A stretch of DNA of 27,787 nucleotides from an uncultured Eggerthellaceae bacterium (GTDB lineage Bacteria > Actinomycetota > Coriobacteriia > Coriobacteriales > Eggerthellaceae). Numbering within the stretch: the stretch's first letter is position 1; every line of letters begins with the position of its first letter. Positions 13,636-27,251 of this stretch are shown here, in pieces. A program made the position numbers and the translations under genes. Location: contig CAYOBD010000002.1 of the NCBI GenBank assembly GCA_964402005.1, positions 1 to 27,787 on the forward strand, read 5' to 3'. The notes under the pieces are model-generated. The model saw only the letters and a list, made by a program, of their open reading frames with translations. It ran no database searches and had not been told where the DNA came from.

Positions 13636-13665
13636 GGGACAAAGGTTACTGTCTGTACGTATAAT
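13636..13665 (+). promoter_or_regulatory. Candidate housekeeping-sigma promoter of the giant gene
   Basis: Perfect TATAAT at 13660-13665, with GGGACA (4/6 to TTGACA) 18 bp upstream. A small dyad actta-tctgg-taagt (13667-13681) covers the expected start site. Confidence 0.5.
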
Positions 13666-13704
13666 GACTTATCTGGTAAGTGTAACAACGCTCGGGGGGC
13701 TGCG

Positions 13705-13791
13705 ATGAAATTGACTATGGTTCGCAGGGTTTTGGCGTTTGTAGTATCTGCATCGATGGTCTTCGGATTGACGCCGGCGTACGCTTATGCG
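13705..13791 (+). other. Sec signal peptide of the giant protein
   Basis: MKLTMVRR (basic) - VLAFVVSASMVFGL (hydrophobic) - TPAYAYA (A-x-A cleavage site). Confidence 0.85.
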
Positions 13792-16700
13792 GACACGTCT
13801 GCAGCCGAGCCAGAGGTGCAAGAAGAGCCGGCAGCATCGGCGGAACCTGCTGCGCTCGCAGCGCCAGCCGCTTCTGCAACCGATGCCCTCGATGTGCCGA
13901 ACGCGTTTATCCCGCAATCCGGCGCTATGCTCACCGTGGGCACGCCTTCCACCGCTCAGGCGATTGTGGTAAGCGATTGGGAAACCCTGCAAGAAGAAGT
14001 CACAAATGCCAGCGCTGACCAGGAATTCAAACTGGGCGGCAATGTGGTCAATTACGGGAAGGATAAGGGCCGCATCAAAGTCACCAAGTCCATCACGATC
14101 GATCTTGCCGGCCATAAACTGGACCGCGACCTCGCTGAATCATCCGTGAGAGACGGCGGCCACGTCATAGAGGTTTACTCAGGCGCAACGCTGACCGTCA
14201 AAGACAGCGTGGGCGGCGGAACGATTACCGGCGGCCACGGATACTGGGGCGGAGGCATCTACGTCAACGAAGGCGCCACGTTCAAGCTCGAAAGCGGCAC
14301 CATCACCGGCAACACCGCCAATACCCTTGGCGGCGGCATATACGTAGGCGGCACCCTGATCATGTCGGGCGGCTCCGTCTACAAAAACACGTGCACAGGC
14401 GACGAAGACAGCCACGGAGGCGGCGGCGTATACGTAGACGGCTCCATGACCATGTCGGGCGGCGCCATCTCGAACAACACGAGTTATGGCGACGGCGGCG
14501 GTGTCTACGTATACAAGAACGCCAGCATGACCATGTCGGGCGGCGCCATCTCGAACAACGAGACTAGCAGCGACGGCGGTGGACTTCGCGTGAGCGGAAC
14601 CCTGACCACGACGGGCGGCACCATCTCGAGCAACACCGGAGATAAGACCGGCGGCGGCATCTACGTAAGCGATGATGGCCGGATTAACCTTGACGGCACG
14701 ACCATATCCGGCAACATCTCGAACGGTACCGGCGGTGGTTTGAACGTGCATCTGAAGGATGACACGTCGGTCATCAAGAACTGCTCGATTACGGGCAATA
14801 GTTCGAAGGATTTCGGCGGCGGCTTGCGCTTGGACCCGGCCAGCAACAGCAGAAAGCTGACGGTCGAAAACACGCGCATCGATAACAACAGGACGACCGC
14901 CTACAACGACGGTGGCGGCATCTACGTGAGCTACGGATCCCTCACGATGACCGGCGGCACGATCTCCGGCAACACCGCATACGGCGGCGGTGGCGGCGTC
15001 AAAGTCAAAGACGGCACGACCTTCACTGCAAATGGCGTTACCATCAGCAACAACACGGCAAGCCGGGAAGAAGGCGGCGGCATAAAGAACTTCGGCACCA
15101 CGAGCCTTGCGAACTGCACAATCTCGGGGAATACCGCGAAGTTTCAGGGTGGCGGCATCTACAACGACGACGATGGCAATGGCAACGGCGCTGGCTTGTT
15201 GACGCTTACAAGCTGCACCATTACCGGCAATCAATCAACCAGCAGCAATGGCGGCGGCGTCTACTCAAACGAGACGCTGAGAGTACACGGCGGCAGCGAT
15301 TCCGCAAGCGCAGTGCGGATTTCCGGGAACACCGCAAGCACCGGCGGCGGCATCTTCCTCGGCTCGGACTCCGATGACACCAGCATTTGGGGTTTGATCG
15401 TGGTGGAAAACAACATCGCGTCCACCGGCAAAGACATCTACCTGCGACCGGAACGAAAGCTTGCCATGTCCAGGTTCGCGGGCCAGCTGGTCGAAGGCTC
15501 CCATATCGGCGTCACCATGTACGAAGGGCTCGGAACCTTCACGACGGGCTATAGCAGCAAAAACTCCGCCGACCCCTCAACGTATTTCTTCTCCCCGGAT
15601 GGGTACGAGATTGCCTTCACCGACAATAAGCAGGAGGCGCAGATCGTAACCCAGTGGAAGGCCCTTCAAATCAACATCGACGCCGAACCCGCAAACGGAA
15701 CCGTGTCGCTGACACACGATTACACGAGGCTTTCCAGCGACATCAGGCTGCAGATCAAAAAGAATGTCACGATCGACTTGGCCGGCTTCACGCTGAACCG
15801 CAACCTCTCATCGTTGAAAGACAACGGCCATGTCATTGAGGTGCTCAACGGCGCAGCGCTCACCATCACGGATAGCAGCGCTTCGGACGGCAATCTGGGG
15901 ACCGGAAAGATCACCGGCGGATACGCCGGTTGGGGCGGCGGCGTCTACGTCGCCGAAGGCGCCGCGTTCAACTTCGAAAGCGGCACCATTACCAGCAATA
16001 CCGCCAATACCCTTGGCGGCGGCATATACGTTGGCGGCACCCTGACCATGTCGGGTGGTTCTGTCTATAAAAACGACTGTAAAGGCGACAACTCCGGTCA
16101 CGGCGGCGGTGGCATATACATTGACGGCTCCATGGCCATGTCGGGCGGCTCCATCTCCGGAAATACGGTCGAAGGCCACGGCGGTGGTATTTTCGTTTAT
16201 AGCAACGCCTCCCTCACTATGACGGGCGGCACCATCTCCAGCAACGAGACGACCTCTGGCGCGGGCGGCGGAATCTTTGTGAAGTCCAACGGCTGGATCA
16301 AGCTCAGCAATGCAATCATCACTAACAACACCGCAGACGATGAAGGCGGTGGCATATATGTTCATCTGAGGTCGAATTCGTCCATCGATAATTGCAAAAT
16401 CACCTCCAACCACGCAGGCGATGCAGGCGGCGGCCTGTACATGGATGAATCGGGCCGCAAGCTTACGATCACTGACACGCAAATCGACAATAACGTGTCA
16501 GGGGAAGGCGGCGGAGGCCTCTGCTTGCATAACGGTACCATCGAGATGTCTGTCAGCGAAGGGCAGTCAGGCTCCATTTCGCACAACAAAGCACCTGAAG
16601 GCGGCGGTGCGACGATAGCGAGCCAAACATCTTTCACAGCGACCGGTATCACCGTCGAAGACAACGAGGCGGAAACCGGGCAGGGCGGCGGCATCAAGAA

Positions 16701-19700
16701 CTTCGGCATCACGAAACTTTCAGGCTGCACCACACGTTTGAACCATGCGCATGAGCAAGGCGGCGGCATCTTCAATGACAACAACCCGAACAACAGCAAG
16801 AGCGAAGGCACCCTGATACTTGAGAACAGCGTCATCTCCGGCAACAACTCCGACGACGATGGCGGCGGCATCTACACCGACAAGGTGCTGAAGATCAACG
16901 GCGGAACCACCTCTGAAAACAGCGTATACATTTTCAACAACACTGCGATACGCGGCGGCGGGGTCTTCGTCGGCCTGGATTCCGACACGACAGAAATCAA
17001 GGGCGACATTGTCGTGAAGGATAACTCCGCAGTGGCAGAGGCTCCGGATGTCTACGTTCGGGAAGACCAGGTGCTCACCGTAACCGGAGCGCTGTCCGAG
17101 AGCGCGCGGATCGGCATCACGATGGAAGACGACATCGGGACCTTCACGAGCGGGTACAAAGCGAAAAACGGCACGAACCCGCCCGATAAGTACTTCTTCT
17201 CACCCGATGGGCTCGATGTCGGCTATGACTTTTTACACACCGAGGCGCAGCTCAAATCGACATGGAGAACCCTCCAAGCAGATATCGACGCCACTGCAAG
17301 GGGCGGAGTCCTCACGCTTCCGCATGACTACACGGCCACATCGGTCGACGATCGGCTTCAAATCAAGAAGGACATCACGATCGACCTGGCCGGCTTTACG
17401 CTGAACCGGAACCTTTCAGATAAGAAGGAAGACGGCCACGTCTTCGAAGTGTTCAACGGCGCAACGCTCACCATCATTGACAGCAGCGACACGGGTACCG
17501 GCACAATCACCGGCGGTTATTCGGCATACGGAGGCGGCATCTACGTCAACAAGGGCGCTACCCTCAAGTTCGAAGGCGGCACCATCACCGGCAACAAGGC
17601 CGGCACGGATGGCGGCGGCATCTACGTATCGGGTACGCTCGTCATGACGGGCGGTGCCGTGTCCTACAACTATGCAGATGACGAAGGCGGCGGCATATAC
17701 CTGGAGGCGCAGGCCAATTCGACTATCAAAGACTGCACGATCGACCATGACGAATCAGATAAAGCCGGCGGCGGAATCTATATGGACGCAAAAGGCAAGA
17801 AACTGACGATTTCCGGCGCAAGTATCACCGACAACAAGGCCGGCAAGAAAGGCGGCGGCATCTGCCTGCACTGGGGCACCATCGAGATGAACGGCGGCAC
17901 ACTGTCCAACAACACCGCGTCCGGCGCGGGCGGCGGCATCGCGGTCACAAGCGGCACGGTCTTCACGGCGACCGGCGTCACCATCAACGACAACACCGCG
18001 GGTGATGAAGGCGGCGGCGTCAATAACGTCGGCACGGCGACGCTGAAGAATTGCGACATCATGGGAAACCGTGCGAAGGAGCAGGGCGGCGGCATCTTCA
18101 ACGACAACGACGGCGATAGCCTGGGCGACATGACGCTCGAGAGCTGCACCATCTCCAACAATACGTCGGGTGACGACGGCGGCGGCGTCTACTCCGATAA
18201 GATGCTGAAGATCGTCGGCGGGACAATCGGCAAGACCACCAGAAACGGCGTGGAGATTCCCGGCAACACCGCAGATGACAAAGGCGGCGGCATCTTCATC
18301 GGCAAGGAAGCCGATTCCACAGAAATCAAGGGCGCCATCCTGGTAGAAGGCAACACAGCGCCAACTGCCAACGACCTCTATCTGCGGAAGAGTCAGAAGC
18401 TAACCATCGCCGGGGCCATCACAGGCACCAGGATCGGCTATATCGACATGCAGGACCCTGGAGACTTCACGGTGAATTACCGCAACAGGCACTCGGAGGC
18501 CCCCAATACGTTTTTCGGCACAGGAGACGGGGCGATTCCCGTCGTTTGGTCGGAGAGCAGGACGGAAGCAAGGATCCATTCTTCCTGGCCGGCGCTTCAA
18601 GAGCTTATAAACCAAGCAGCGGAAAACGGCCGGCCCGTAGTGCTCAGCCAAAGCTACACAGCATGTTCGACCGATAAGGTGCTGAAGATTCCTGCAGGCA
18701 AATCCGTCACGATAAACCTGAACGGCTATACGCTGGACCGCAACCTTTCGTCCCACGAGGAAGACGGCCACGTCATCGAGGTGCTCGAAGGCTCGAGCAT
18801 CGCGAAGACGACCTTGACCATCCAGGACAACCCAACCGACAACCACGGTCCAGGGCCTGGAACGATTACCGGCGGCTTTTCGGGTCGCGGCGGCGGCATC
18901 TACATCCATGACAACGCCATCCTCAACTTGGAGGGCGGCGCCATCGTCGGCAACGGTTCGAAAAAGGACGGCGGCGGCATCCTTGTCAGAAGTGAGGGCA
19001 CCCTGAACATGTCGGGCGGTACCGTGTCGGACAACAGAGCGGGCACGGATGGCGGCGGCATTTGCGTAGAAGGCTCTATGAACTCGACGGGCGGCACCGT
19101 TTCCGGCAACACTGCGGATGATACCGGCGGCGGCATCTATGTAAGCTCCAGCGGGAAGATCGACCTGGATGGCACGACCATCTCCGGCAACACTGCGGAT
19201 GATACCGGTGGCGGCCTGAACGTGCATCTGAACGACGACGAGTCGATAATCAAGAATTGCTGGATTACCGACAACAGGTCCGATGACTTCGGTGGCGGCC
19301 TGCGCCTTGATGCAAGCGGCAGGACGTTGACGATCAGAGATACGCACATCGATGGCAATACGGCCAGCGATAACGACGGCGGCGGCATCTACGTGCGCTA
19401 CGGAACCCTCCATGTGATAGGCGGCACGATCTCCGGCAACATCGCATCCGACGGGGGCGGTGGCGTGAAGGTGAAAGACGGCGCGACCTTCACTGCATCG
19501 GGCGTTACCATCAGCGACAATACGGCAAGCGGTGCTGAGGGCGGCGGTGTCAAGAGCTTCGGCACGGCGAGCCTTGCGAATTGCACAATCACGGGGAACA
19601 CCGCGCATAAGCAGGGCGGCGGCGTCTACAACGATAACGAGAGCGGCGGAAAAGGCGAGCTGACGCTTACGAATTGCACCATTACCGGCAACAGGTCGGA

Positions 19701-22700
19701 TGATGACGGCGGCGGCGTCTACTCTGACGAAACACTGAGGATCATCGACGGAACGAGCGGTACAGGTACCTCCGAAGGTAGCACGCTGATTTCCGGGAAC
19801 ACCGCAGAACGAGGTGGCGGCGTCTTCGTCGGCGGGAACTCCGATCCCACTGGAATCAGGGGCAGCGTCATCGTGCAAGGCAACTCGGCAACCATCTTCG
19901 GCAATGACGTATTCCTGCGCGAGGGTAGGAAGCTCAAGCTCACGGGGCAGTTGGCCGACGATGCGAAGATTCATGTGGACATGGAGGACGGCGTCGGCGT
20001 ACTCACCGAGAACTACCGTCTTTTCAACGGCAGCGCCGATCCGCATCAATATTTCGCTGTGACAAGAGGCTACGACATGAACCTCAATGCAGACGGCGAA
20101 GTGGAGATCAGCTCCGAGTGGTCGACGCTGAAGCGCACTATCGAAAACGCGGCCGACGGTGCAACGATCACGCTTATCAGAGACTATGCCGCGAAGCCAT
20201 CCGATGACAGGATCAAGATTCCTCAGGGTAAAAGCATCACAATCAACCTGGCAGGCCACACCCTGAATCGCAACCGTATGGAGTCGGACAAAGATGGCCA
20301 CGTCTTCGAGGTTTTCGGGACGCTTACCCTGCAGGACACAGACGAGCAAGGGAACAACCTGGGAACTGGCACCGTCAAGGGCGGTTGGGCGATACACGGC
20401 GGCGGCATCAACGTCAACGAAACGGGTACGCTGAACCTGGAGGGCGGCATCATCGAAGGCAACCAGGCAACCGACGACGGTGGCGGCATCTACGTGTACG
20501 GCACCCTCAACATGGCAGGCGGCATCGTCAGGGCCAACGCAGCGGAAGAGAACGGCGGTGGCATCGGCCTGGAAACGGATGGCACGCTGAACCTCGAAGC
20601 CGGTACGATCACCGGCAACAAGGCCGATGAGCGCGGCGGCGGCATCATGGCGAACGAGGGCTCGGCGATCAACGTAAAAGGCGGACCCGTCGTGCAGAAC
20701 AACAAAGCAACGCTCGGCGGCCCTGATATCTATCTGCCTTCCCAAGGCAGGCTGAAGGTAACGGGCGATTTTGCCGAAGGTGCGAGTATCGGCGTTTCCA
20801 TAAAAGAGGGATGGGGCACGTTCACAAGCGGGTATAGCGACGACAGCAAAAACAAGGACAAAAGCCCTGTACTGTATTTCACGTCGCCCGAGGGGTACTC
20901 GGTTTACGAGCTCAACGGCGAGGCCGCATTGGGGTTGGACAACTTCGGGGAAACGGAGTACGAAAGCCCGTTCGTCAGCTGGAATGATCAGTTGAACTTC
21001 AATACAACGACACTGACCGGTCTAAATTGGATGTCCGGCATTTCCGGCGAGCGCTATCTCAACGAGATCAACATGCCCGGATCCCATGATTCCGGAATGA
21101 ACAACGTGAAATACTATTGGGTTGACGGCACGGCATTCGTGGCCTTCCTTTTCCCTTACATAGGTGCTGAATTCGCCAAGACGCAGCAAGACTACATCTA
21201 TCAGCAGCTCGACCAGGGTGCGCGCCAGTTCGATATCCGCCTGAATGATAACTACAAAACAAAGCAAGGCGGGGGTTACAAATGGAAAGACGACGGTCGC
21301 AACCTTTGGGTTTGCCATGGCGCGGAGGGTGCGGCAGGTACCTATTACGCTATGAATAGCGATGACGATCTACTGAGTTTCGTCCAGGTGCTCAACTGGA
21401 TGAAGGATTTCCTGAAGATGCATCCAACGGAAACGATTGTCCTCAACATAAGGCCGGAGACGACTTTGTCGGGCCATAGCGGCCCCATTTACCGGCGCGC
21501 TCGAAAAACGCTGGAAGCCCTTCTGCTCCAGGATAATCCCTCGACTGGAGAACCCTATCTCTACAAAGAGGCTGGCTCCGACTCTTACTTCGCTGCGTAC
21601 ACGCACATGCCGCAGCTCAAGGATTGCCGCGGGACGATCGTGATTCTCCCGGGCGATGAAGAAGGCCTCAGCATCTGCGGCGGTTTCAGGGGAACCTCGT
21701 TCGACGGCATTGCTTATACGGACCCGACGCATTACGCGGACAGTGAAGAGGCGATGGTAGAAAACGTAAACAAGTCGTATGTGGAAATGGGAGGCAACCA
21801 GAAATGGCTTCCCACCGATGCGGACGAAAACTACGACTGCCTTTGGTACTGGGAGCTGAATTGCACCGAGAAGGACAAATACGATAAGAGCGGTTGGTTT
21901 GCGGATCTCATTAAATACAATTCCTGGATGGCGAATATTGTCCATTATACCGCTGGAGATAATCCGGTCGAAGTCGCGCAATATGTGAACAAGCGGTTGG
22001 TCGGCGAGGGAAACATCTTCGGTCCGATGAACACGGGGCACTACATCGGCTGGGTCAGGATGGATGACTTCAATGCCGAGCATGCGGAGGCAATTTGGAG
22101 GACTAACTTCTTCGAAGGCTTGCAATACTGCACCATTACCGTGAAGTCGGGGCTCGATGACGACGCGAAATACCCCCCGCAAACCTACAAGGTGCTGAAG
22201 GGGACGGATCTCGAGATTCCCGGAAACATCTACAGGCATCTGGAGGGCAGGTATCTCGGCAGTTGGAAAGCGAAAGGGGCGACCGCAGAAGAGCGGACCT
22301 GCAAACCAGGCGAGGCGTTCACGGTCGACGAGGACGTCACTTTCACGGCCCAATGGCTGCAACCAGGCGAAATTCCCGTTAGGATCGTATGGATGGATGG
22401 CGACAACGCCGACAGTCTGAGAGCGGACAGCGTGGAGCTGCTCGTCTCCGAAGGGGAGCCCGATCGGATAACGCTATCGAAGCAGCAGGGTTGGACCGGC
22501 GTCGTGAAAGGCACCCTTGAGAGCGTGGTGGTTGTTCCGAGTTGGTCTTGCATTAAACCGACCGAGAATGATCCATTCGGACGGGACGCCATCGGGCAGT
22601 ACCGCTACGAGGTGAGCTCCGATAGCACCAATGGGGTCATCCTTACATTCGTCCATACGCCGTCAACCAAGATTACGATTGCGGGAACGATCTTCTGGGA

Positions 22701-25700
22701 CGACGACAACGATGCCGATGGATTGCGTCCTAACTCGGTGACGGTCCATCTGCGGAAGAAGGGCAGCGATGTCGATCTTGCACCCGCTGCAACGGTCGCT
22801 CCGGACGCGAATGGCAGCTGGCAATACAGCTTCGGCGAGTATGACCTGTATGCTGCAGGCGAGAAAATCGAATACGAGATTGTCGAGAATGACATTACCG
22901 GATATAGCACGATTGTCGATGGCTTCGCCGTTACCAACACCCATGCATCAAGCAGGCAGGACGAAACCGAAGCGTTCGGCTTGGTGGAATGGGACGATGC
23001 CAAGAACGTGAACGGCGATCGCCCGGAGAAGGTCGCAGTGCATCTGTATGCGAATGGCGTAGAGGTCGAGAAAGTCAGTCCCCAGGAGGTTACCGAAGGG
23101 GAAAGCGGGCTGTGGCCGTTCAGCTTCGGCAAGGTCCCCATCAGCGATTCTGAGGGGCAGCCGATCGTCTATACCCTCACCGTAGATGTCGATGAAAAAT
23201 ATGAGCCCAGCGTGATGAAATTCGACACCTGCGCATTCCTCGTTACAAATACGCTCGTGGTTCCCGATGGGAAAAAGGAGGATGTGACAAACGTAGAAGC
23301 GCCGATCATCAACGAGCTGGTTTACACGGGCGAGCCGCAGATGCTGATCGATGAAGGCTCTTGCTCCGGCGGAACTATGATGTATGCCCTGGGCGAGAAT
23401 GCCACGGAAGCTCCCTCGGACGACGCATTCGGCGTAACGCCGCCCACCGGAACGAACGCCGGCACCTACTATGTATGGTATTACGCGAAAGGCGATGCAT
23501 ACCACAGGAACACCGCCAAGGTGTGCGTGGAGGATCCGAACCCGGATGTGGACGGGTATCCGACGATCGCGCCGCGTCCGGTGACTTTCGCGGGGCAATC
23601 TGCCACCGAGTACTACACAGGCTCCGAACACGAGATCGCAGGCGTTTCGGTTTTGGGAGGCGGGCTCGTTTCCGGCCATACGCACAACGTGACCTACTCG
23701 GCAAAAGGAACCGAAGTTGGTGAGTATCCCGGCAATATCACGGCGGCGGCCGACGTGGTCATCATGGCGGGCGATGCCGTCGTCACCGACAACTACGATA
23801 TCACGGTCGAAAACGGTGCATTGGCTATCGAGAAGGACCCATCACTGGTGCTTGCAGTGTCGCTTGAAGACGCGACGTTCACATATGACGGCGAGCCGCA
23901 CGCGCTGTCCGCAGCGACGGCGGATGCGCTGAGCGGTGTGACGAAGATCGAGTACAGCAAGGACGGCGAAACCTGGACGACCGAGCTTGCGAGCCTGACT
24001 GCTACAGACGTGGTTGACGGCTGCACGATCAAGGTGCGTGCTTCCAACCCGAACTATACCAATGAAGCCACGGACAGCGCGACGCTCACCATCTCGAAGC
24101 GCAATGTGACGTTGACGAGTGAAAGCGGCACGAAGATCTACGACGGCACGCCGCTCGCAAAGCCCGAGGTGACCGTTGCAGGCGATGGTTTCGTGGACGG
24201 CGAGGTAACTGGCCTTGAGGCGACCGGCTTTGTGACGAACGTCCCCGATGGGGAGGTAACGAACACGATTGTTTTCACCGAGGGCGAGGCTTACAAGGCG
24301 GGTAACTACGAAATCAGCAAGGACGAAGGCAAGCTGTCTATAGAACAGCGCCCGGTAACCTTCAGGGGCAGGTCCGAGACCAAGGACATCACGGGATTAG
24401 AGATCGAGATATCGACCGTGATAGTGGAGGGCCTGGTCGAGGGCCATACGCACAACGTGACCTACTCGGCGAAGGGAACCGATGTGGGCGAGTATTCCGG
24501 CAATATCACGGCGAAGGCCGACGTGGCCATCACGGCGGGCGGTGCCGTTGTCACCGACAACTACGATATCACGATCGAAAACGGCAAGCTCACCATCCAG
24601 GAGAGGGGCGATACGCTTACGGTGTATTTCGACGGGAAGTCCTTCACGTACGATGGCAAGCCGCATGCGCTGCCCGTCGAAGCTACAACCAACGCTCCGA
24701 AGAATACGACCACGTTCAAGTACTCGCTGGACGGTGAGTACTGGACGGAAGACCTTTCTAGCCTGACTGCTACAGACGCCGGCACCTACCCGGTTCAGGT
24801 GCGTGCGACCAGCACGGATTATCCCGGCAAGCTCGGCGAGGGCAGCGCTACGCTGATCATCAGTCCGAAGGTTGCGACCGTTACGGCCCAAAGCAAGGCT
24901 TTCACCTACAACGGCACAGCTCAGAGTTGGGGCGAATACGACGTCGAGGGCCTTGTGGGCGATGATGAAATCAGCGCGGTCGTGACCGGCTCTGTCACCT
25001 TCCCGAGCGAAGGCACGGTGTCCAACACGATTTCGAGCTATAAGTTCACCGTCGGCAAGCCCGGCAACTACGAGGTGACTACATCCGACGGCGAGCTTAC
25101 GATGGCCAACGCCTCGGTTCCCATCACCATCACGGCTGCGAGTGCCTCCAAGACTTACGACGGCACGGCGCTGACCGCCCCGGCTGTTATCAAGGTTACC
25201 GGGGAGCTGTTCGCGGGCGATACGCTCGTGGCGAGCGCCAACGGCTCCGCAACAGATGTCGCCGACACCGTCTCCGGCAATAACCCGGTCGCGGAGGGCT
25301 ATAAGGTCATGCACGGCGAGCAGGATGTGACTGCGAGCTACGATATCACCCCGATAGCCGGAACGCTGGCTATAACCAAGCGCCCGGTGACTTTCGCGGG
25401 CAGATCCGAGACCAAGGACTACACGGGGTTCGAGATCGAGATTTCGACCGTGGCGGTGGACGGCCTGGTCGAGGGGCACACGCACAACGTGGTGTTCTCG
25501 GCGAAGGGCACCGATGTCGGCGGCCCGTATGCGGGTGCCATAACGTCTGCGAATAAGGTGGCTATCAAGAGCGGCGAGGCTGATGTCACTGCGAATTACG
25601 ACGTCAAGGTGGAAAACGGCGCTTTGACCATCCAAATTGCGAGCGGCGAGCTTACGGTGTTGCTCGATGGGAAGGAATACACATACGATGGCAGGCGTCA

Positions 25701-27216
25701 TGCTCTTCCGCTGGATGCGTCCACCAACGCGTCGAGCGGTGAGACCACGATTCTGTACAGCAAGGATGGCGAGAACTGGACGGAGGACCTCTCAAGCCTG
25801 GTTGCCACCGACGTGGAAGATAGTTGCGCGATCCAAGTGCAAGCGACTAACTCAAACTACACCAATACAGCGACGGCCAGCGCCCCGCTGACTGTCAAGG
25901 AGAGGACCGTGACGATTACAGCGGAGTCCGAGGAGTTCACCTACGATGGCGCTGCGCACTCAAACGGCGGTTTCGTCGTCAACGGCCTCGTGGGCGAAGA
26001 TGAGGTCACCGACGTCGTGGTCGAGGGCTCTGTCACCTTCCCAAGCGATGGTTCGGTGCCCAACAGGGTTTCGAGCTACAAACTTTTGAGCGGCAAGCCT
26101 GGAAACTACACGATTGAAACGGTCGACGGCGGGCTTACGGTGAAGAACGCCTCGGTTCCCATCACCATCACGGCTGCGAGCGCCTCCAAGGTCTACGACG
26201 GCACGGCGCTGACCAACCCGGCCGTCACGGTGACTTCCGGCGAGCTGATCGCTGGCGACGCCTTCGAGGGCGCGGCCGATGGCTCTGCGGTGAATGTCGC
26301 CGATACCGCCGAGGGCAACAACCCCGTTGCCAGCTATAGGATCACGCACGGCGGTGTGGACGTCACTGCGAGCTACGTTATCACGATCGAGGATGGCGTG
26401 CTGGCTATCGAGCCCGCGAAGGTCACTATCAAGGCGGATAGCGCCTCCAAGGTGGCGGGCGAGGACGACCCGGCTTTCATCGGCACGGTCGAGGGGCTCG
26501 TGGCCGAGGGTGATCTGGGCACGGTGTCTTACAAGCGGACGAACTCCGACGAGGCGCCCGGCACCTACAAGGGCGTAATCACGGCTGAGTACACGGCTAA
26601 CGGGAACTACGATGTGACCGTCGTTGCGGGGGATTTCACGATTAGCGAGGAGCCCGTCGAGAGGGGCGTTTACAGAGTGACGTCGGGTGCAGACGGCACC
26701 TGGACGAGGGGCTCGGGCGAGGCGCTCGATCTAAAGGTCGAGCGCACGGTCGACCCAGAGACGGCATTCGCGCACTTCGTCGGCATCGAGGTGGACGGCG
26801 AGGCCGTCCCGCAGAAGGGCGCTTCTGGCGAGGCGAATTGGACGGCCGAGAGCGGCAGCGTGATTCTCGAGATCCAGCCTGCCTACCTCGAGACGTTGGC
26901 GGACGGCGAGCACACCGTTGCCGCCCTCTTCGACGACGGTGATCCCGCCACGGCGAAGTTCGCCGTGGCCGCAAAAGCCGCGCCTGCGCCGGACCCGGAC
27001 GACGGGGGCAATGGCAGCGGCGGCAACGGCAGCAATGGCGGCGCTTCGTCGGGCTCCGACAAGACCACGACGGCCAAGGCAAGCGCCTACGCACAGAGCG
27101 CATCCGCCAAGACCGGCGACTCGATCGGGATGGCGGTCTTGGCGCTCGGCTTTGTCGCTCTGACGGCCCTCTGCCTGGCACTGGTCGCCCTCCGTCGCCG
27201 CAGGAACGTGAAATAA
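13705..27216 (+). CDS. Giant (4503 aa) cell-wall-anchored surface protein: signal peptide, 5 beta-helix cassettes, PI-PLC domain, InlB-B/CnaB/MBG stalk, X2-like domain, sortase signal
   Basis: A single uninterrupted ORF with an N-terminal signal peptide and a C-terminal SAKTG + hydrophobic helix + RRRRNVK. Domain evidence is given in the sub-features. Confidence 0.93.
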   Translation: MKLTMVRRVLAFVVSASMVFGLTPAYAYADTSAAEPEVQEEPAASAEPAALAAPAASATDALDVPNAFIPQSGAMLTVGTPSTAQAIVVSDWETLQEEVTNASADQEFKLGGNVVNYGKDKGRIKVTKSITIDLAGHKLDRDLAESSVRDGGHVIEVYSGATLTVKDSVGGGTITGGHGYWGGGIYVNEGATFKLESGTITGNTANTLGGGIYVGGTLIMSGGSVYKNTCTGDEDSHGGGGVYVDGSMTMSGGAISNNTSYGDGGGVYVYKNASMTMSGGAISNNETSSDGGGLRVSGTLTTTGGTISSNTGDKTGGGIYVSDDGRINLDGTTISGNISNGTGGGLNVHLKDDTSVIKNCSITGNSSKDFGGGLRLDPASNSRKLTVENTRIDNNRTTAYNDGGGIYVSYGSLTMTGGTISGNTAYGGGGGVKVKDGTTFTANGVTISNNTASREEGGGIKNFGTTSLANCTISGNTAKFQGGGIYNDDDGNGNGAGLLTLTSCTITGNQSTSSNGGGVYSNETLRVHGGSDSASAVRISGNTASTGGGIFLGSDSDDTSIWGLIVVENNIASTGKDIYLRPERKLAMSRFAGQLVEGSHIGVTMYEGLGTFTTGYSSKNSADPSTYFFSPDGYEIAFTDNKQEAQIVTQWKALQINIDAEPANGTVSLTHDYTRLSSDIRLQIKKNVTIDLAGFTLNRNLSSLKDNGHVIEVLNGAALTITDSSASDGNLGTGKITGGYAGWGGGVYVAEGAAFNFESGTITSNTANTLGGGIYVGGTLTMSGGSVYKNDCKGDNSGHGGGGIYIDGSMAMSGGSISGNTVEGHGGGIFVYSNASLTMTGGTISSNETTSGAGGGIFVKSNGWIKLSNAIITNNTADDEGGGIYVHLRSNSSIDNCKITSNHAGDAGGGLYMDESGRKLTITDTQIDNNVSGEGGGGLCLHNGTIEMSVSEGQSGSISHNKAPEGGGATIASQTSFTATGITVEDNEAETGQGGGIKNFGITKLSGCTTRLNHAHEQGGGIFNDNNPNNSKSEGTLILENSVISGNNSDDDGGGIYTDKVLKINGGTTSENSVYIFNNTAIRGGGVFVGLDSDTTEIKGDIVVKDNSAVAEAPDVYVREDQVLTVTGALSESARIGITMEDDIGTFTSGYKAKNGTNPPDKYFFSPDGLDVGYDFLHTEAQLKSTWRTLQADIDATARGGVLTLPHDYTATSVDDRLQIKKDITIDLAGFTLNRNLSDKKEDGHVFEVFNGATLTIIDSSDTGTGTITGGYSAYGGGIYVNKGATLKFEGGTITGNKAGTDGGGIYVSGTLVMTGGAVSYNYADDEGGGIYLEAQANSTIKDCTIDHDESDKAGGGIYMDAKGKKLTISGASITDNKAGKKGGGICLHWGTIEMNGGTLSNNTASGAGGGIAVTSGTVFTATGVTINDNTAGDEGGGVNNVGTATLKNCDIMGNRAKEQGGGIFNDNDGDSLGDMTLESCTISNNTSGDDGGGVYSDKMLKIVGGTIGKTTRNGVEIPGNTADDKGGGIFIGKEADSTEIKGAILVEGNTAPTANDLYLRKSQKLTIAGAITGTRIGYIDMQDPGDFTVNYRNRHSEAPNTFFGTGDGAIPVVWSESRTEARIHSSWPALQELINQAAENGRPVVLSQSYTACSTDKVLKIPAGKSVTINLNGYTLDRNLSSHEEDGHVIEVLEGSSIAKTTLTIQDNPTDNHGPGPGTITGGFSGRGGGIYIHDNAILNLEGGAIVGNGSKKDGGGILVRSEGTLNMSGGTVSDNRAGTDGGGICVEGSMNSTGGTVSGNTADDTGGGIYVSSSGKIDLDGTTISGNTADDTGGGLNVHLNDDESIIKNCWITDNRSDDFGGGLRLDASGRTLTIRDTHIDGNTASDNDGGGIYVRYGTLHVIGGTISGNIASDGGGGVKVKDGATFTASGVTISDNTASGAEGGGVKSFGTASLANCTITGNTAHKQGGGVYNDNESGGKGELTLTNCTITGNRSDDDGGGVYSDETLRIIDGTSGTGTSEGSTLISGNTAERGGGVFVGGNSDPTGIRGSVIVQGNSATIFGNDVFLREGRKLKLTGQLADDAKIHVDMEDGVGVLTENYRLFNGSADPHQYFAVTRGYDMNLNADGEVEISSEWSTLKRTIENAADGATITLIRDYAAKPSDDRIKIPQGKSITINLAGHTLNRNRMESDKDGHVFEVFGTLTLQDTDEQGNNLGTGTVKGGWAIHGGGINVNETGTLNLEGGIIEGNQATDDGGGIYVYGTLNMAGGIVRANAAEENGGGIGLETDGTLNLEAGTITGNKADERGGGIMANEGSAINVKGGPVVQNNKATLGGPDIYLPSQGRLKVTGDFAEGASIGVSIKEGWGTFTSGYSDDSKNKDKSPVLYFTSPEGYSVYELNGEAALGLDNFGETEYESPFVSWNDQLNFNTTTLTGLNWMSGISGERYLNEINMPGSHDSGMNNVKYYWVDGTAFVAFLFPYIGAEFAKTQQDYIYQQLDQGARQFDIRLNDNYKTKQGGGYKWKDDGRNLWVCHGAEGAAGTYYAMNSDDDLLSFVQVLNWMKDFLKMHPTETIVLNIRPETTLSGHSGPIYRRARKTLEALLLQDNPSTGEPYLYKEAGSDSYFAAYTHMPQLKDCRGTIVILPGDEEGLSICGGFRGTSFDGIAYTDPTHYADSEEAMVENVNKSYVEMGGNQKWLPTDADENYDCLWYWELNCTEKDKYDKSGWFADLIKYNSWMANIVHYTAGDNPVEVAQYVNKRLVGEGNIFGPMNTGHYIGWVRMDDFNAEHAEAIWRTNFFEGLQYCTITVKSGLDDDAKYPPQTYKVLKGTDLEIPGNIYRHLEGRYLGSWKAKGATAEERTCKPGEAFTVDEDVTFTAQWLQPGEIPVRIVWMDGDNADSLRADSVELLVSEGEPDRITLSKQQGWTGVVKGTLESVVVVPSWSCIKPTENDPFGRDAIGQYRYEVSSDSTNGVILTFVHTPSTKITIAGTIFWDDDNDADGLRPNSVTVHLRKKGSDVDLAPAATVAPDANGSWQYSFGEYDLYAAGEKIEYEIVENDITGYSTIVDGFAVTNTHASSRQDETEAFGLVEWDDAKNVNGDRPEKVAVHLYANGVEVEKVSPQEVTEGESGLWPFSFGKVPISDSEGQPIVYTLTVDVDEKYEPSVMKFDTCAFLVTNTLVVPDGKKEDVTNVEAPIINELVYTGEPQMLIDEGSCSGGTMMYALGENATEAPSDDAFGVTPPTGTNAGTYYVWYYAKGDAYHRNTAKVCVEDPNPDVDGYPTIAPRPVTFAGQSATEYYTGSEHEIAGVSVLGGGLVSGHTHNVTYSAKGTEVGEYPGNITAAADVVIMAGDAVVTDNYDITVENGALAIEKDPSLVLAVSLEDATFTYDGEPHALSAATADALSGVTKIEYSKDGETWTTELASLTATDVVDGCTIKVRASNPNYTNEATDSATLTISKRNVTLTSESGTKIYDGTPLAKPEVTVAGDGFVDGEVTGLEATGFVTNVPDGEVTNTIVFTEGEAYKAGNYEISKDEGKLSIEQRPVTFRGRSETKDITGLEIEISTVIVEGLVEGHTHNVTYSAKGTDVGEYSGNITAKADVAITAGGAVVTDNYDITIENGKLTIQERGDTLTVYFDGKSFTYDGKPHALPVEATTNAPKNTTTFKYSLDGEYWTEDLSSLTATDAGTYPVQVRATSTDYPGKLGEGSATLIISPKVATVTAQSKAFTYNGTAQSWGEYDVEGLVGDDEISAVVTGSVTFPSEGTVSNTISSYKFTVGKPGNYEVTTSDGELTMANASVPITITAASASKTYDGTALTAPAVIKVTGELFAGDTLVASANGSATDVADTVSGNNPVAEGYKVMHGEQDVTASYDITPIAGTLAITKRPVTFAGRSETKDYTGFEIEISTVAVDGLVEGHTHNVVFSAKGTDVGGPYAGAITSANKVAIKSGEADVTANYDVKVENGALTIQIASGELTVLLDGKEYTYDGRRHALPLDASTNASSGETTILYSKDGENWTEDLSSLVATDVEDSCAIQVQATNSNYTNTATASAPLTVKERTVTITAESEEFTYDGAAHSNGGFVVNGLVGEDEVTDVVVEGSVTFPSDGSVPNRVSSYKLLSGKPGNYTIETVDGGLTVKNASVPITITAASASKVYDGTALTNPAVTVTSGELIAGDAFEGAADGSAVNVADTAEGNNPVASYRITHGGVDVTASYVITIEDGVLAIEPAKVTIKADSASKVAGEDDPAFIGTVEGLVAEGDLGTVSYKRTNSDEAPGTYKGVITAEYTANGNYDVTVVAGDFTISEEPVERGVYRVTSGADGTWTRGSGEALDLKVERTVDPETAFAHFVGIEVDGEAVPQKGASGEANWTAESGSVILEIQPAYLETLADGEHTVAALFDDGDPATAKFAVAAKAAPAPDPDDGGNGSGGNGSNGGASSGSDKTTTAKASAYAQSASAKTGDSIGMAVLALGFVALTALCLALVALRRRRNVK
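13978..20935 (+). repeat. Five tandem right-handed parallel beta-helix cassettes (GGG(I/V)Y...I(S/T)(G/N)N turns, POMP/pectin-lyase-like), starting at 13978, 15655, 17263, 18586 and 20119
   Basis: Each cassette opens with W-x-x-L-(Q/K)...I(T)IDLAG(F/H)TL(N/D)R...DGHV(I/F)EV and closes with an IG(V/I)(T/S)M...GTFT.GY...P..YF.SP(D/E)G-type cap. Dozens of GGGIY/N turns lie between. Confidence 0.85.
21025..22110 (+). other. Bacterial phosphatidylinositol-specific phospholipase C (PI-PLC X-box) domain inside the giant protein
   Basis: NWMSGISGERYLNEINMPGSHDSG, TQQDYIYQQLDQGARQFDIRL, LWVCHG, FLKMHPTETIVL and C-terminal GWVRMDDF...IWRTN. These match the motif order of Bacillus/Listeria PI-PLC. Confidence 0.85.
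22126..22359 (+). other. InlB B-repeat / Listeria-Bacteroides repeat-like domain
   Basis: CTITVKSG...YKVLKGTDLEIP...YLGSW...PGEAFTVDEDVTFTAQW. Confidence 0.6.
22372..23256 (+). repeat. Three Cna B-type domains (22372-22662 degenerate, 22669-22944, 22963-23256)
   Basis: IFWDDDNDADGLRPNSVTVHL...W.YSF...Y.I.E...GY...VTNT and VEWDDAKNVNGDRPEKVAVHLYANG. The first copy reads IVWMDGDNADSLRADSV. Confidence 0.8.
23290..26643 (+). repeat. Stalk of about ten MBG-like Ig-fold repeats of several subtypes
   Basis: Recurrent YTG/YDG...P, K.YDGT.L and NY.IT...G.L.I motifs. The last unit, KVTIKADSASKVAGEDDPAF...NYDVTVVAGDFTI, is a typical MBG_2. Confidence 0.75.
26668..26967 (+). other. X2-like Ig/carbohydrate-binding-module-like domain preceding the wall anchor
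   Basis: F.GIEVDG...WTAESGSVILEIQPAYLETLADGEHTVAALFDDG.ATAKF. Confidence 0.55.
27103..27216 (+). other. Sortase sorting signal, non-canonical SAKTG
   Basis: SAKTGD - SIGMAVLALGFVALTALCLALVAL - RRRRNVK*, preceded by an APAPDP / Gly-Asn-Ser linker. Confidence 0.85.
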
Positions 27217-27251
27217 GGAACAGAATGGGACTGTCCCTTTCTGTTCCTTTT
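27215..27251 (+). terminator. Intrinsic terminator of the giant gene
   Basis: aaggaacagaatgggac-t-gtccctttctgttcctt: 17-bp arms with one mismatch, ending in a T run and overlapping the TAA. Confidence 0.8.

What the first reader, a model, noticed from the sequence alone, without database searches (positions are those of the whole stretch)
13705..27216. One-gene 'adhere and cleave' surface machine: beta-helix head, enzyme, Ig stalk, sortase anchor
Seen: a single 13.5-kb ORF, about half the window, ordered as signal peptide, ~2300 aa of beta-helix, PI-PLC, InlB-B, 3x CnaB, ~10x MBG, X2-like domain and SAKTG anchor. I do not know a characterised protein with this combination, which is a limit of recall and not proof of novelty. 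Inference: the distal beta-helices bind a surface or glycan and position the lipase against a membrane, making this a candidate colonisation, predation or nutrient-scavenging system in a gut or rumen anaerobe.
Basis: partly seen in the sequence, partly recalled or inferred. Interest (0 to 1): 0.82.

Follow-up and report, generated by a model that had tools for sequence, protein, structure and literature searches.

The report
Wall-anchored giant fibre carrying a PI-PLC
A rumen Eggerthellaceae bacterium encodes a 4,503-residue cell-wall-anchored fibre with an apparently active inositol-lipid-cutting enzyme in its middle. It belongs to a large uncharacterised family found mainly in ruminant-gut genomes of Bacillota, Coriobacteriia and methanogenic archaea, and the target it cuts is unknown.

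Summary
Window 13705-27216 (+) is one intact 4,503-aa ORF. Its order is: signal peptide, five tandem beta-helix cassettes, a PI-PLC domain, a Flg_new-like domain, 3 CnaB, 13 MBG/YDG domains, an X2-like domain, then an SAKTG sorting signal.

- **Not unique.** At least 92 protein clusters carry this enzyme subtype, nearly all inside 1-5 kaa surface proteins. The commonest order is beta-helix, PLC, Flg-like, CnaB. The MAG itself has three paralogues and three class B sortases.
- **Distribution.** Holders are mostly ruminant-gut MAGs of Lachnospiraceae, Ruminococcus, Coriobacteriia and Methanomassiliicoccales-type archaea. Only 4 of 300 other Eggerthellaceae species have it, and the domain tree interleaves phyla.
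- **Assembly.** Contigs from other samples bridge seven domain junctions. No long read spans the gene and no RNA run was listed.
- **Function.** Inferred only: a tethered adhesin-enzyme acting on inositol lipids or GPI anchors of eukaryotic surfaces. Rumen ciliates are the most interesting candidate.
- **Prior reports.** I found no characterised counterpart. The scan had noted this only on this same window.

The parts
13636..13699 (+). Promoter-like site (GGGACA-18-TATAAT, 13636-13665) and G-rich ribosome-binding-like run (13694-13699)
   Evidence: Consensus scan, 10 of 12 matches; sequence read. These are pattern matches only.
13705..13791 (+). Sec-type signal peptide, aa 1-29, with a likely AYA|D cleavage site
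   Evidence: Translation. The N-terminus is conserved in paralogue P0003. The cleavage site is inferred from the AxA pattern.
13792..13956 (+). Ala/Pro/Glu-rich linker, aa 30-84
   Evidence: Translation.
13957..15639 (+). Beta-helix cassette 1, aa 85-645
   Evidence: Alignment A1; Pfam Beta_helix.
15640..17244 (+). Beta-helix cassette 2, aa 646-1180
   Evidence: A1, 51% identical to cassette 1. The best Pfam Beta_helix stretch is aa 803-976.
17245..18567 (+). Beta-helix cassette 3, aa 1181-1621 (shorter, lacks several rungs)
   Evidence: A1.
18568..20100 (+). Beta-helix cassette 4, aa 1622-2132
   Evidence: AF2 model pLDDT 93.9, pTM 0.93: a right-handed beta-helix with an N-terminal helix cap. 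Pfam NosD at aa 1731-1897. No specific PDB match, best E 0.03.
20101..20964 (+). Beta-helix cassette 5, truncated, aa 2133-2420
   Evidence: A1, 38% identical to cassette 1.
20965..22122 (+). PI-PLC-like TIM-barrel phosphodiesterase, aa 2421-2806. Conserved H2461, D2462, D2510, R2512, H2538, R2642, D2787
22123..22374 (+). Flg_new / InlB-B-repeat-like domain, aa 2807-2890 (weakly supported)
   Evidence: No Pfam hit on this segment. The same position in homologue P0033 gives Flg_new E 2.8e-5. Atlas look-alikes are dominated by Flg_new/SHIRT clusters at 0.92-0.93. The segment follows the enzyme in 81 of 96 relatives.
22375..23283 (+). Three Cna_B domains, aa 2891-3193
   Evidence: Pfam Cna_B E 4.9e-39, three stretches.
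23284..26652 (+). Thirteen MBG_2/YDG-type Ig-like stalk domains, aa 3194-4316
   Evidence: Pfam MBG_2 98.6 bits and YDG 32 bits. Boundaries counted by eye from the repeated motifs. DNA super-repeats of 768 and about 1035 nt.
26653..26973 (+). X2-like domain, aa 4317-4423 (weakly supported)
   Evidence: Pfam CBM_X2 E 0.25. Atlas CBM_X2 clusters score 0.92 with 205 shared features.
26974..27102 (+). Pro/Gly/Ser/Asn-rich wall-spanning linker, aa 4424-4466
   Evidence: Translation. A 9-nt length polymorphism at 27028 appears in two other samples.
27103..27216 (+). Sorting signal: SAKTG (aa 4467-4471), hydrophobic span, RRRRNVK tail, stop codon
   Evidence: Relatives end in the same [ST]AKTGD or SPKTGD signals. 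The genome has three class B sortases.
27217..27251 (+). Intrinsic-terminator-like hairpin (GGAACAGAA...TTCTGTTCC) followed by TTTT
   Evidence: Sequence read.

Best explanation
The gene encodes a monocistronic, Sec-exported surface fibre that a class B sortase most likely links to the cell wall.

**Layout, from the wall outward (shown by sequence and models).**
- A low-complexity linker and an X2-like domain.
- A stalk of 13 MBG/YDG and 3 CnaB Ig-like domains, then a Flg_new-like domain.
- A complete bacterial-type, metal-independent PI-PLC TIM barrel with its catalytic residues intact.
- A head of five self-capped beta-helix cassettes.

**Family.** It is one elaborate member of a family found mainly in ruminant-gut genomes. 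The family appears to have been exchanged between Bacillota, Coriobacteriia and Thermoplasmata archaea. Its commonest downstream partners are a Flg-like domain and a CnaB stalk. The number of beta-helix cassettes and the type of C-terminal anchor vary.

**Mechanism (inferred).**
- The beta-helix head and Ig-like domains hold the cell on a eukaryote-type surface or particle, such as a rumen ciliate, an anaerobic fungus or plant membrane debris.
- The tethered enzyme cleaves the glycerol- or ceramide-phosphate-inositol bond of phosphatidylinositol, GPI anchors or inositol sphingolipids there.
- This would release diacylglycerol and inositol phosphate, or shed GPI-anchored coat proteins, next to the cell instead of letting enzyme and products diffuse away.
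For: **Gene integrity and signals.**

**Enzyme.**
- D2462, D2510, R2512, H2538, R2642 and D2787 are invariant, and H2461 near-invariant, across 47 relatives that are only 31-57% identical. That argues for selection on catalysis.
- The Arg aligned with B. cereus Arg69 marks the metal-independent type (plus established knowledge of that enzyme).

**Anchoring.**
- The motif, hydrophobic span and basic tail are present.
- The genome's other candidate substrates end in xPxTGD.
- Relatives carry [ST]AKTGD.
- The MAG has three sortases, all class B above cut-off.

**Family and modularity.**
- 48 giant homologues.
- 421 representatives at E<=1e-3 and 92 at E<=1e-30.
- Architecture tallies.
- Three paralogues in this MAG.

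**Habitat and spread.**
- 24 of the 37 best genome loci have titles that name ruminant sources, counting the RUG/Tb.RUG isolate labels as rumen genomes on my own knowledge. None names another habitat.
- The runs holding the gene are bovine or sheep gut metagenomes.
- 4 of 300 other Eggerthellaceae species carry the module.
- The window's domain sits in a clade (support 98) with Ruminococcus copies, and phyla interleave with at least 5 forced changes.
- Archaeal contigs encode a 3,212-aa Chlam_PMP, PLC, Flg_new, MBG protein that ends in a plain membrane span.

**Assembly.** Depth is an even ~7x across the gene and its upstream flank in two samples. Contig pieces bridge the five cassette junctions (1/2 to 5/PLC) and the PLC/Flg-like and Flg-like/CnaB junctions.
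Against: - No activity, expression or surface exposure is shown. No RNA run was listed.
- The Pfam PI-PLC-X score is below the gathering cut-off.
- I could not identify equivalents of the inositol-binding Asp198/Tyr200 of the B. cereus enzyme, so the head group may differ.
- The domain carries about 100 extra residues relative to solved PI-PLCs.
- The enzyme sits behind a long head, which is an awkward position for reaching a planar membrane.
- The beta-helix cassette matches nothing specific in the PDB, so its ligand is unknown.
- The sorting motif has Ala where characterised class B substrates have Pro.
- No single read or contig spans the 13.5-kb gene.
Confidence: 0.55

Rival explanations
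1. Ciliate docking or anti-predation device. The family lets hydrogen-consuming bacteria and archaea attach to rumen ciliates, or survive inside them. The PI-PLC would shed or remodel the GPI-anchored surface coat, or breach the food-vacuole membrane much as Listeria PlcA helps escape from vacuoles.
For: - The taxa holding the family are Lachnospiraceae, Ruminococcus, Coriobacteriaceae/Eggerthellaceae/Atopobiaceae and methanogenic Thermoplasmata.
- Levy and Jami 2018 report methanogens, Lachnospiraceae, Ruminococcaceae and Coriobacteriaceae as enriched in the ciliate-associated fraction (PMC6217230).
- The same paper cites a Methanobrevibacter adhesin-like protein that binds protozoa.
- The distribution is mainly ruminant-gut and crosses domains of life.
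- This MAG has [NiFe] and [FeFe] hydrogenases.
- Abundant GPI-anchored surface antigens in ciliates are established knowledge for Paramecium and Tetrahymena.
Against: - The evidence is purely correlative. The same taxa are simply the common monoderm or wall-less rumen lineages, so the overlap may be trivial.
- Nothing is known here about rumen-ciliate GPI coats.
- No localisation or binding data exist.
Confidence: 0.2
2. Tethered nutrient-scavenging lipase. The enzyme harvests diacylglycerol or ceramide and inositol phosphate from plant, fungal or protozoal membrane debris in digesta. The fibre keeps the enzyme and its products at the cell surface, and the beta-helix and X2-like parts bind plant-derived polysaccharide particles.
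For: - The catalytic set is intact.
- In 21 of 96 relatives the enzyme sits at the tip directly after the signal peptide. That fits an exo-enzyme displayed on a stalk.
- The X2-like domain is of a kind found in cellulosomal proteins.
- Beta-helix folds are shared with polysaccharide lyases (weak).
- The rumen is rich in plant membrane lipid. This is established knowledge; phospholipase activities of rumen Butyrivibrio are known from my own recall and were not checked here.
Against: - No uptake or catabolic genes for inositol phosphate or glycerolipid lie beside the gene. The neighbours are housekeeping and signalling genes.
- It is unclear why methylotrophic methanogens would need such a lipase.
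- The very long, costly fibre is more typical of adhesins than of scavenging enzymes.
Confidence: 0.2
3. The PLC-like barrel acts on a non-inositol phosphodiester, or serves mainly as a binding module. Candidate substrates are a teichoic-acid-like or lipoglycan polymer of neighbouring microbes, or inositol-phosphoceramide of Bacteroidota such as Prevotella. The protein would then work in microbe-microbe adhesion or antagonism.
For: - Equivalents of the inositol-contacting Asp198/Tyr200 were not identified. The domain has about 100 residues of family-specific insertions and conserved motifs of its own, such as NPSTGEPYLY and NWMSGISGE.
- The Pfam score is below cut-off.
- MBG and Flg_new domains are typical of cell-cell adhesins.
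Against: - The structural match to true PI-PLCs is very strong and covers nearly the whole enzyme.
- The Arg163 equivalent (R2642), which contacts inositol in B. cereus, is invariant.
- Catalytic residues would not be conserved in a pure binding module.
Confidence: 0.12
4. Assembly artefact: the 13.5-kb ORF is a chimera of several repeat-rich genes joined by a short-read assembler in a fragmented MAG.
For: - The MAG has 436 contigs with N50 7.9 kb.
- The gene is repeat-rich.
- No read or contig spans it, and de Bruijn graph joints occur at repeats.
Against: - Internal repeats are only 60-91% identical and short.
- Depth is an even ~7x through the gene and its flank in two samples. Independent contig pieces cross seven domain junctions, including one piece from a sheep study.
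- The reported joints have only 20-22 matching letters on one side.
- The reading frame is unbroken for 4,503 codons.
- Dozens of relatives on other contigs have the same order of parts.
- GC3 is similar along the gene and in its neighbours.
Confidence: 0.03

Closest known systems
Secreted bacterial PI-PLCs (B. cereus/thuringiensis PI-PLC, S. aureus Plc, Listeria monocytogenes PlcA)
   Different: - Those enzymes are about 300-aa free, soluble proteins.
- This one is about 385 aa with insertions and lies in the middle of a 4,503-aa wall-anchored fibre.
- The Asp198/Tyr200 equivalents were not found.
- The Pfam score is below cut-off.
- The substrate is untested.
Wall-anchored enzyme-adhesins of Gram-positive cocci (e.g. 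S. pneumoniae BgaA and NanA, S. suis SntA, S. agalactiae CdnP)
   Same: The logic is the same: a hydrolytic enzyme displayed on the cell by a sortase signal, flanked by binding and stalk domains. SntA and CdnP are described as wall-anchored phosphodiesterases in PMC8981391. BgaA and NanA are from my own knowledge.
   Different: The enzyme class differs, since no characterised example carries a PI-PLC. This protein is far larger, has a five-cassette beta-helix head, uses a class B type signal, and comes from a commensal rumen anaerobe.
Adhesin-like proteins of gut and rumen methanogens, and Flg_new-rich proteins of Methanomassiliicoccales
   Same: They are large, repeat-rich surface proteins tied to host-associated habitats and thought to mediate cell-cell contact, including binding to rumen protozoa (PMC6217230; PMC13658579 and PMC10673518). 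Archaeal members of this very family exist.
   Different: The one adhesin-like-protein paper I text-searched (PMC13658579, on Methanobacteriales) mentions no phospholipase, phosphodiesterase or enzyme. The other papers were not checked for this. The archaeal versions use a plain membrane span instead of a sortase signal.
Beta-helix adhesins: chlamydial Pmps and autotransporter passengers (Ag43, pertactin, TibA)
   Same: Right-handed beta-helix built from Gly-rich GGxI-type rungs. Homologues hit Pfam Chlam_PMP. The best PDB neighbours, though weak, include Ag43, pertactin and TibA.
   Different: No beta-barrel translocator is present in this monoderm host. Here five separately capped cassettes are strung in tandem. 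No PDB match is significant (best E 0.03).
Clostridioides difficile SrtB substrates ((S/P)PxTG proteins)
   Same: The genome has only class B sortases, and its candidate substrates end in SPKTGD, TPKTGD, LPKTGD or SPSTGD.
   Different: This protein has SAKTG, with Ala for Pro. The same variant recurs in relatives. The motif specificity of these sortases is untested, and the C. difficile motif is from my own knowledge.

Membership tests
Bacterial metal-independent PI-PLC (PLC-like phosphodiesterase TIM barrel) | Incomplete (beta/alpha) barrel fold superposable on 1PTD, 3V18 and 1AOD | tested here: met
Bacterial metal-independent PI-PLC (PLC-like phosphodiesterase TIM barrel) | Catalytic His32/Asp33, Asp67/Arg69, His82 and Asp274 (B. 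cereus numbering) | tested here: met
   - H2461/D2462 and D2510/R2512 align directly with PG(S/T)HD and D-I-R in the PDB sequences.
- H2538 and D2787 are assigned by order and invariance, not by residue-level superposition.
- All are invariant or near-invariant in 47 relatives.
Bacterial metal-independent PI-PLC (PLC-like phosphodiesterase TIM barrel) | Inositol-binding residues (Arg163, Asp198, Tyr200, Lys115) | tested here: inconclusive
   R2642 (the CRG motif) is invariant and aligns with the RGK/KGK motif. An Arg stands at the Lys115 position. No conserved Asp-x-Tyr equivalent was found in the poorly aligned 2660-2720 stretch.
Bacterial metal-independent PI-PLC (PLC-like phosphodiesterase TIM barrel) | Pfam PF00388 PI-PLC-X at or above the gathering score | tested here: not met
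   17.8 bits against a 23.1 cut-off, E 0.0028 on the excised domain. There was no hit on the whole protein. Some homologues do carry a precomputed PF00388 hit.
Bacterial metal-independent PI-PLC (PLC-like phosphodiesterase TIM barrel) | Cleavage of PI or GPI to diacylglycerol and cyclic inositol phosphate | not testable with these tools
   Needs an enzyme assay.
Sortase-anchored surface protein (class B type) | C-terminal motif, then a hydrophobic span, then a basic tail | tested here: met
   SAKTG, then GDSIGMAVLALGFVALTALCLALVAL, then RRRRNVK.
Sortase-anchored surface protein (class B type) | Cognate sortase in the genome | tested here: met
   Three Sortase-domain genes, all TIGR03064 class B at about 170 bits against a 153.75 cut-off.
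Sortase-anchored surface protein (class B type) | Canonical (S/P)PxTG motif | tested here: inconclusive
   This protein has SAKTG. Other proteins of the genome have xPxTGD. Relatives P0002, P0007, P0005, P0033 and P0042 also have xAKTGD, so this is a recurrent variant. Cleavage is untested.
Cna_B (PF05738) | Pfam match above the gathering score | tested here: met
   133 bits, three stretches in aa 2885-3200.
MBG_2 / YDG Ig-like stalk domains (PF18676, PF18657) | Pfam match above the gathering score, in tandem | tested here: met
   MBG_2 98.6 bits and YDG 32.2 bits. 13 units counted by eye.
Flg_new / InlB B-repeat (PF09479, PF18998) | Pfam match above the gathering score | tested here: not met
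   No hit on aa 2803-2895. The homologous segment of P0033 scores 24.6 bits against a cut-off of 27. Atlas feature look-alikes are mostly Flg_new clusters at 0.92. I treat the domain as Flg_new-like.
CBM_X2 (PF03442) | Pfam match above the gathering score | tested here: not met
   11.9 bits, E 0.25. Atlas CBM_X2 clusters score 0.92 with 205 shared features. I treat the domain as X2-like.
Right-handed parallel beta-helix (PF13229) | Pfam match and a beta-helix fold | tested here: met
   183.5 bits over 10 stretches. AF2 model of cassette 4 has pLDDT 93.9 with regular three-strand rungs.
Autotransporter / Pmp adhesins | C-terminal outer-membrane beta-barrel translocator | tested here: not met
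   The C-terminus is a sortase signal and Pfam finds no autotransporter domain. The resemblance is confined to the beta-helix.

The most novel reading that the evidence does not exclude
The PLC-on-a-stalk family may be a shared, horizontally traded toolkit. Hydrogen-consuming rumen bacteria and methanogenic archaea would use it to dock onto hydrogen-producing ciliates, or to survive inside them. It would work by cutting or gripping the protozoan GPI-anchored surface coat. That would make it a molecular basis for protozoa-prokaryote consortia that matter for methane output.
Probability: 0.2. Interest if true: 0.85.

Novelty: new variant of a known kind. Interest (0 to 1): 0.55.

Why it matters
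**Known context.**
- Characterised bacterial PI-PLCs are small secreted proteins, mostly studied as virulence factors.
- Here the same enzyme, apparently active, is built into giant wall- or membrane-anchored fibres.
- The fibres occur in commensal anaerobes and archaea, mostly from ruminant guts.

**What this points to.**
- It suggests an unstudied way for rumen microbes to interact with eukaryote-type membranes of ciliates, fungi, plant debris or host cells.
- It gives a concrete and easily assayed enzyme as a handle on the otherwise opaque class of giant adhesin-like proteins.
- If the ciliate link holds, the family would mark and help explain protozoa-associated hydrogen consumers, including methanogens. 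That is relevant to methane mitigation.

**If the enzyme only scavenges lipids.** Then this is a neat but ordinary example of enzyme display on a stalk.

Tried and rejected
- **Pfam and NCBIfam on the whole protein.** They miss the enzyme. Only the excised domain gives a sub-threshold hit.
- **PDB sequence search with cassette 1.** Nothing found.
- **Foldseek with the confident cassette-4 model.** No significant match, best E 0.03, generic beta-helices only. I therefore assign no enzymatic or ligand specificity to the head.
- **Pfam on the Flg-like and X2-like segments.** No hit above threshold.
- **RNA runs.** None was listed, so expression is untested.
- **Read laying joints** (for example 14317 to 17575). 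These have only 20-22 fitting letters on one side and fall in the GGxGGGIY rung repeats. I read them as graph noise or other organisms, not deletions.
- **Runs X5 and X6.** They lack the PLC segment at 95% likeness or more. These are likely related strains or paralogues, and I did not pursue them.
- **Recent-transfer signal.** GC3 of the parts (0.67-0.84) overlaps that of the neighbours (0.70-0.79). The PLC part is only slightly low at 0.67, so I make no claim of recent acquisition.
- **Neighbouring genes.** They give no functional link: an ABC/FtsX transporter, aminotransferases, MetA, an RsbU/V/W-like triad, a two-component system, CoaX and Fhs.
- **Literature searches.** No paper turned up describing a wall-anchored PI-PLC or this family.
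Full report
**1. The observation.**

The window is the whole of contig C2 of a fragmented MAG: 436 contigs, 2.5 Mb, 76% complete, 58% GC. A single ORF runs 13705-27216 (+) and translates to 4,503 residues without a stop.

The gene looks self-contained:
- A promoter-like GGGACA-18-TATAAT sits at 13636-13665.
- A G-run lies 5 nt before the ATG.
- A hairpin plus T-run follows the stop at 27217-27251.

The neighbours are unrelated housekeeping and signalling genes. Upstream are an ABC/FtsX transporter, two aminotransferases, MetA, an RsbU/V/W-like triad, a two-component system and CoaX. Downstream is formate-tetrahydrofolate ligase, identified from its N-terminal sequence on my own reading. A neighbouring aminotransferase is 70% identical to Eggerthellaceae MAG proteins and 66% to Gordonibacter. 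The organism is therefore an uncultured member of Eggerthellaceae.

**2. Anatomy.**

- **Signal peptide and head.** After a Sec-type signal peptide and an Ala/Pro/Glu linker come five tandem cassettes: aa 85-645, 646-1180, 1181-1621, 1622-2132 and a truncated 2133-2420.
  - The later cassettes are 38-54% identical to the first.
  - Each opens with a W..LQ helix cap and a conserved TIDLAG.TLNRNL...DGHVIEV strand set.
  - Each closes with an IG...G.FT.GY...P..YF element.
  - Pfam calls them Beta_helix/NosD.
  - An AF2 model of cassette 4 is very confident (pLDDT 93.9, pTM 0.93) and is a regular right-handed beta-helix.
  - It has no significant relative in the PDB. The best hits (E 0.03 and weaker) are generic: Ag43, pectate lyase, tailspikes and pertactin. 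The ligand of the head is unknown.
- **Enzyme.** See section 3.
- **Flg_new-like segment, aa 2807-2890.** Pfam does not recognise it. The homologous segment of P0033 gives Flg_new at E 2.8e-5, and Atlas look-alikes are mostly Flg_new/InlB-B/SHIRT clusters.
- **Stalk.** Three Cna_B domains score 133 bits. Thirteen MBG_2/YDG-type domains occupy aa 3194-4316.
- **X2-like domain.** Pfam gives E 0.25 and the Atlas 0.92.
- **C-terminus.** A Gly/Ser/Asn/Pro linker is followed by SAKTG, a hydrophobic span and RRRRNVK.

**3. The enzyme.**

It holds on stronger tests:
- phmmer against PDB sequences finds Listeria PlcA (E 2e-5) and S. aureus PI-PLC, and aligns PGSHDSG with PGTHD and FDIR with IDIR.
- I aligned 47 relatives and folded the domain, giving pLDDT 88.4.
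- Foldseek's top 24 hits are all bacterial PI-PLCs, at E down to 3e-13.

Residue conservation across relatives only 31-57% identical:

| Window residue | B. cereus equivalent | Conservation |
|---|---|---|
| H2461 / D2462 | His32 / Asp33 | near-invariant / invariant |
| D2510 / R2512 | Asp67 / Arg69 | invariant |
| H2538 | His82 | invariant |
| R2642 | Arg163 | invariant |
| D2787 | Asp274 | invariant |

H2538 and D2787 are assigned by order and invariance, not by residue-level superposition. I could not find equivalents of Asp198/Tyr200. The domain also carries about 100 extra residues and family-specific conserved motifs. The chemistry (phosphodiester cleavage by two histidines, metal-independent) is well supported, while the exact head group is not.

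**4. Anchoring.**

- Other candidate surface proteins of the MAG end in SPKTGD, TPKTGD, LPKTGD, SPSTGD or APNTGD, followed by a hydrophobic span and basic tail.
- The MAG has three sortase genes, and all score as class B above cut-off.
- SAKTG has Ala where these have Pro. The same [ST]AKTGD variant recurs in relatives P0002, P0005, P0007, P0033 and P0042. It is therefore a family trait, not a defect.
- Other family members end differently: in unrelated C-terminal modules, or in a plain membrane span for the archaeal L032. The anchor is swappable.

**5. It is a family, not a one-off.**

- A search restricted to 2.5-7.9 kaa proteins found 48 homologues of the enzyme segment at 30-55% identity. 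They carry Beta_helix/Chlam_PMP, PI-PLC-X, Flg_new, Cna_B and MBG_2.
- The exhaustive representative search found 421 clusters at E<=1e-3 and 92 at E<=1e-30. Nearly all the best hits are 1-5 kaa proteins.
- Among 96 fetched proteins that hold the whole domain:

| Feature | Count of 96 |
|---|---|
| Beta-helix upstream of the enzyme | 74 |
| Flg-like segment directly downstream | 81 |
| Cna_B downstream | 67 |
| Enzyme directly after the signal peptide | 21 |

- The core is therefore the enzyme, most often followed by the Flg-like segment and a CnaB stalk. The beta-helix cassettes are a variable, expandable addition.
- The window's protein is at the elaborate end of this range.
- The MAG has two further paralogues, on C12 (3,429 aa, ending SPKTGD) and on C161.

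**6. Where it occurs.**

- In the species-representative genome collection, 24 of the 37 best loci have titles naming ruminant sources. I counted reindeer, sheep, roe deer, buffalo, goat, 'ruminal' and the RUG/Tb.RUG series, the last from my own knowledge of those labels. No title names another habitat.
- The holders are Ruminococcus, Lachnospiraceae, Eubacterium, Erysipelotrichaceae, Bacilli, Eggerthellaceae, Coriobacteriaceae and Atopobiaceae. They also include Methanomassiliicoccaceae, Methanomethylophilaceae and other Thermoplasmata MAGs.
- One archaeal contig encodes a 3,212-aa protein with Chlam_PMP, PLC, Flg_new and MBG parts.
- The runs that hold the window's gene are gut, bovine-gut and sheep-gut metagenomes from several studies.
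- Within Eggerthellaceae only 4 of 300 other species, in 3 of 64 genera counting the window's own, have the module. Those that have it often carry 2-3 copies.
- In a maximum-likelihood tree of the domain, the window's copy groups with its paralogues, one Eggerthellaceae MAG and two Ruminococcus MAGs (support 98). A second Coriobacteriia clade is sister to a Lachnospiraceae clade. At least five phylum changes are forced by well-supported branches. Three of the four archaeal copies form one clade among the bacterial ones, and the fourth (L055) is a long branch at the midpoint root.
- Transfer between rumen lineages is the simplest reading, though old paralogy and bin contamination cannot be excluded.
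- GC3 along the gene matches its neighbours, so any transfer is not recent.

**7. Is the assembly sound?**

- Internal repeats are diverged: at most 91% over 143 nt and about 80% over 300 nt.
- In two samples of one study, depth is an even ~7x through the gene and its upstream flank.
- Contig pieces bridge the domain junctions as follows:

| Junction | Bridging pieces |
|---|---|
| Cassette 1/2 | X2-11, and X6-24 from a sheep study |
| Cassette 2/3 | X1-2 |
| Cassette 3/4 | X1-3 |
| Cassette 4/5 | X1-4 |
| Cassette 5/PLC | X1-5 |
| PLC/Flg-like and Flg-like/CnaB | X2-14 |

- The listed joints have only 20-22 fitting letters on one side and fall in rung repeats.
- No record spans the whole gene, so long-read confirmation is still wanted.
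- No RNA run was listed, so expression is untested.

**8. How it most likely works.**

- **Shown:** the export signal, the sorting signal with cognate sortases, the order of parts, a complete PI-PLC fold with conserved catalytic residues, and family-wide modularity.
- **Inferred:** the C-terminus is fixed to the wall. The Ig-like stalk holds the enzyme tens of nanometres out, and the beta-helix cassettes extend further. The fibre binds a surface, and the enzyme cleaves inositol-phosphate-linked lipids or GPI anchors there.
- **Candidate targets:** such lipids are mainly eukaryotic, which points to ciliates, fungi, plant debris or host cells. The position of the enzyme behind the head, and the head-less relatives, argue that the head is an accessory binder, not a device that positions the enzyme.
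- **Ciliates as the most interesting candidate:**
  - The holder taxa overlap closely with those reported as enriched on rumen ciliates: methanogens, Lachnospiraceae, Ruminococcaceae and Coriobacteriaceae (PMC6217230).
  - All of these groups include hydrogen users.
  - This MAG has [NiFe] and [FeFe] hydrogenases.
  - The link is correlative only.

**9. Comparison and novelty.**

The enzyme is a member of the bacterial PI-PLC fold family, with divergent sequence and insertions. The whole protein works like the wall-anchored enzyme-adhesins of streptococci and like methanogen adhesin-like proteins. I found no characterised protein, and no paper, that describes a PI-PLC built into such a fibre or describes this family. 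Public names for the relatives are 'Ig-like', 'Cna B-type domain-containing' or 'hypothetical'. The scan's own notes show the same window only, with no earlier find on other DNA.

I rate it a new variant of a known kind. It is interesting chiefly for its habitat-linked, cross-domain distribution and for offering an assayable enzyme within giant adhesins.

Noticed in passing
G000:C12:10132-11331 and G000:C161:2567-3826 (own genome, outside the window): Two further paralogues carry the same PLC-like module, at 58% and 52% identity. The C12 copy is a 3,429-aa ORF ending in SPKTGD. The C161 copy is cut by the contig end.
   Followed up: partly
L031, L032 (6575-16213), L033, L055: Contigs binned as Methanomassiliicoccaceae, Methanomethylophilaceae and Thermoplasmata encode the same PLC-like module. 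In L032 it lies inside a 3,212-aa Chlam_PMP, PLC, Flg_new, MBG protein that ends in a plain membrane span, next to a phage-type integrase gene. I did not verify that the contigs are truly archaeal.
   Followed up: partly
window 6375-9671: A co-oriented SpoIIE/PP2C phosphatase (with 5TM-LYT, Cache and HAMP parts), a STAS protein and an anti-sigma-type kinase form an RsbU/V/W-like partner switch. No sigma factor gene lies in the window.
   Followed up: partly
window 13366-13430: Just after coaX, a 23-nt direct repeat (gatgagtcgcagagaactgttct, twice) contains an inverted repeat (cgcagagaactgttctctgcg). It is probably the coaX terminator region.
   Followed up: no
window 18400-20745 (-), 24397-25701 (-), 14179-15234 (-): Long antisense ORFs of 781, 434 and 351 aa lie inside the giant gene. 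They look like shadow frames of the GGC/GCC-rich rung repeats, not genes.
   Followed up: no
window 27028: A 9-nt deletion polymorphism in the Gly/Ser/Asn linker appears in bovine and sheep samples. Many synonymous-looking differences occur in the PLC segment in sample X2, which indicates co-existing strains.
   Followed up: no
window 27297-27787: Depth over the downstream formate-tetrahydrofolate ligase gene is 10-20 times that of the giant gene in all four runs. Conserved sequence from other organisms probably maps there, which likely explains why the contig ends here.
   Followed up: no
window 22375-23283: The three CnaB domains have F, E or V where isopeptide-forming CnaB domains have the N-terminal Lys before the conserved Trp. 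They also carry D-x-D-x-DG-x-RP loops like the calcium-binding Sdr B repeats. This is by eye only.
   Followed up: no
G000:C58:5291-6811 and G000:C269:611-1465: The MAG encodes a [NiFe] hydrogenase large subunit and a [FeFe] hydrogenase.
   Followed up: no
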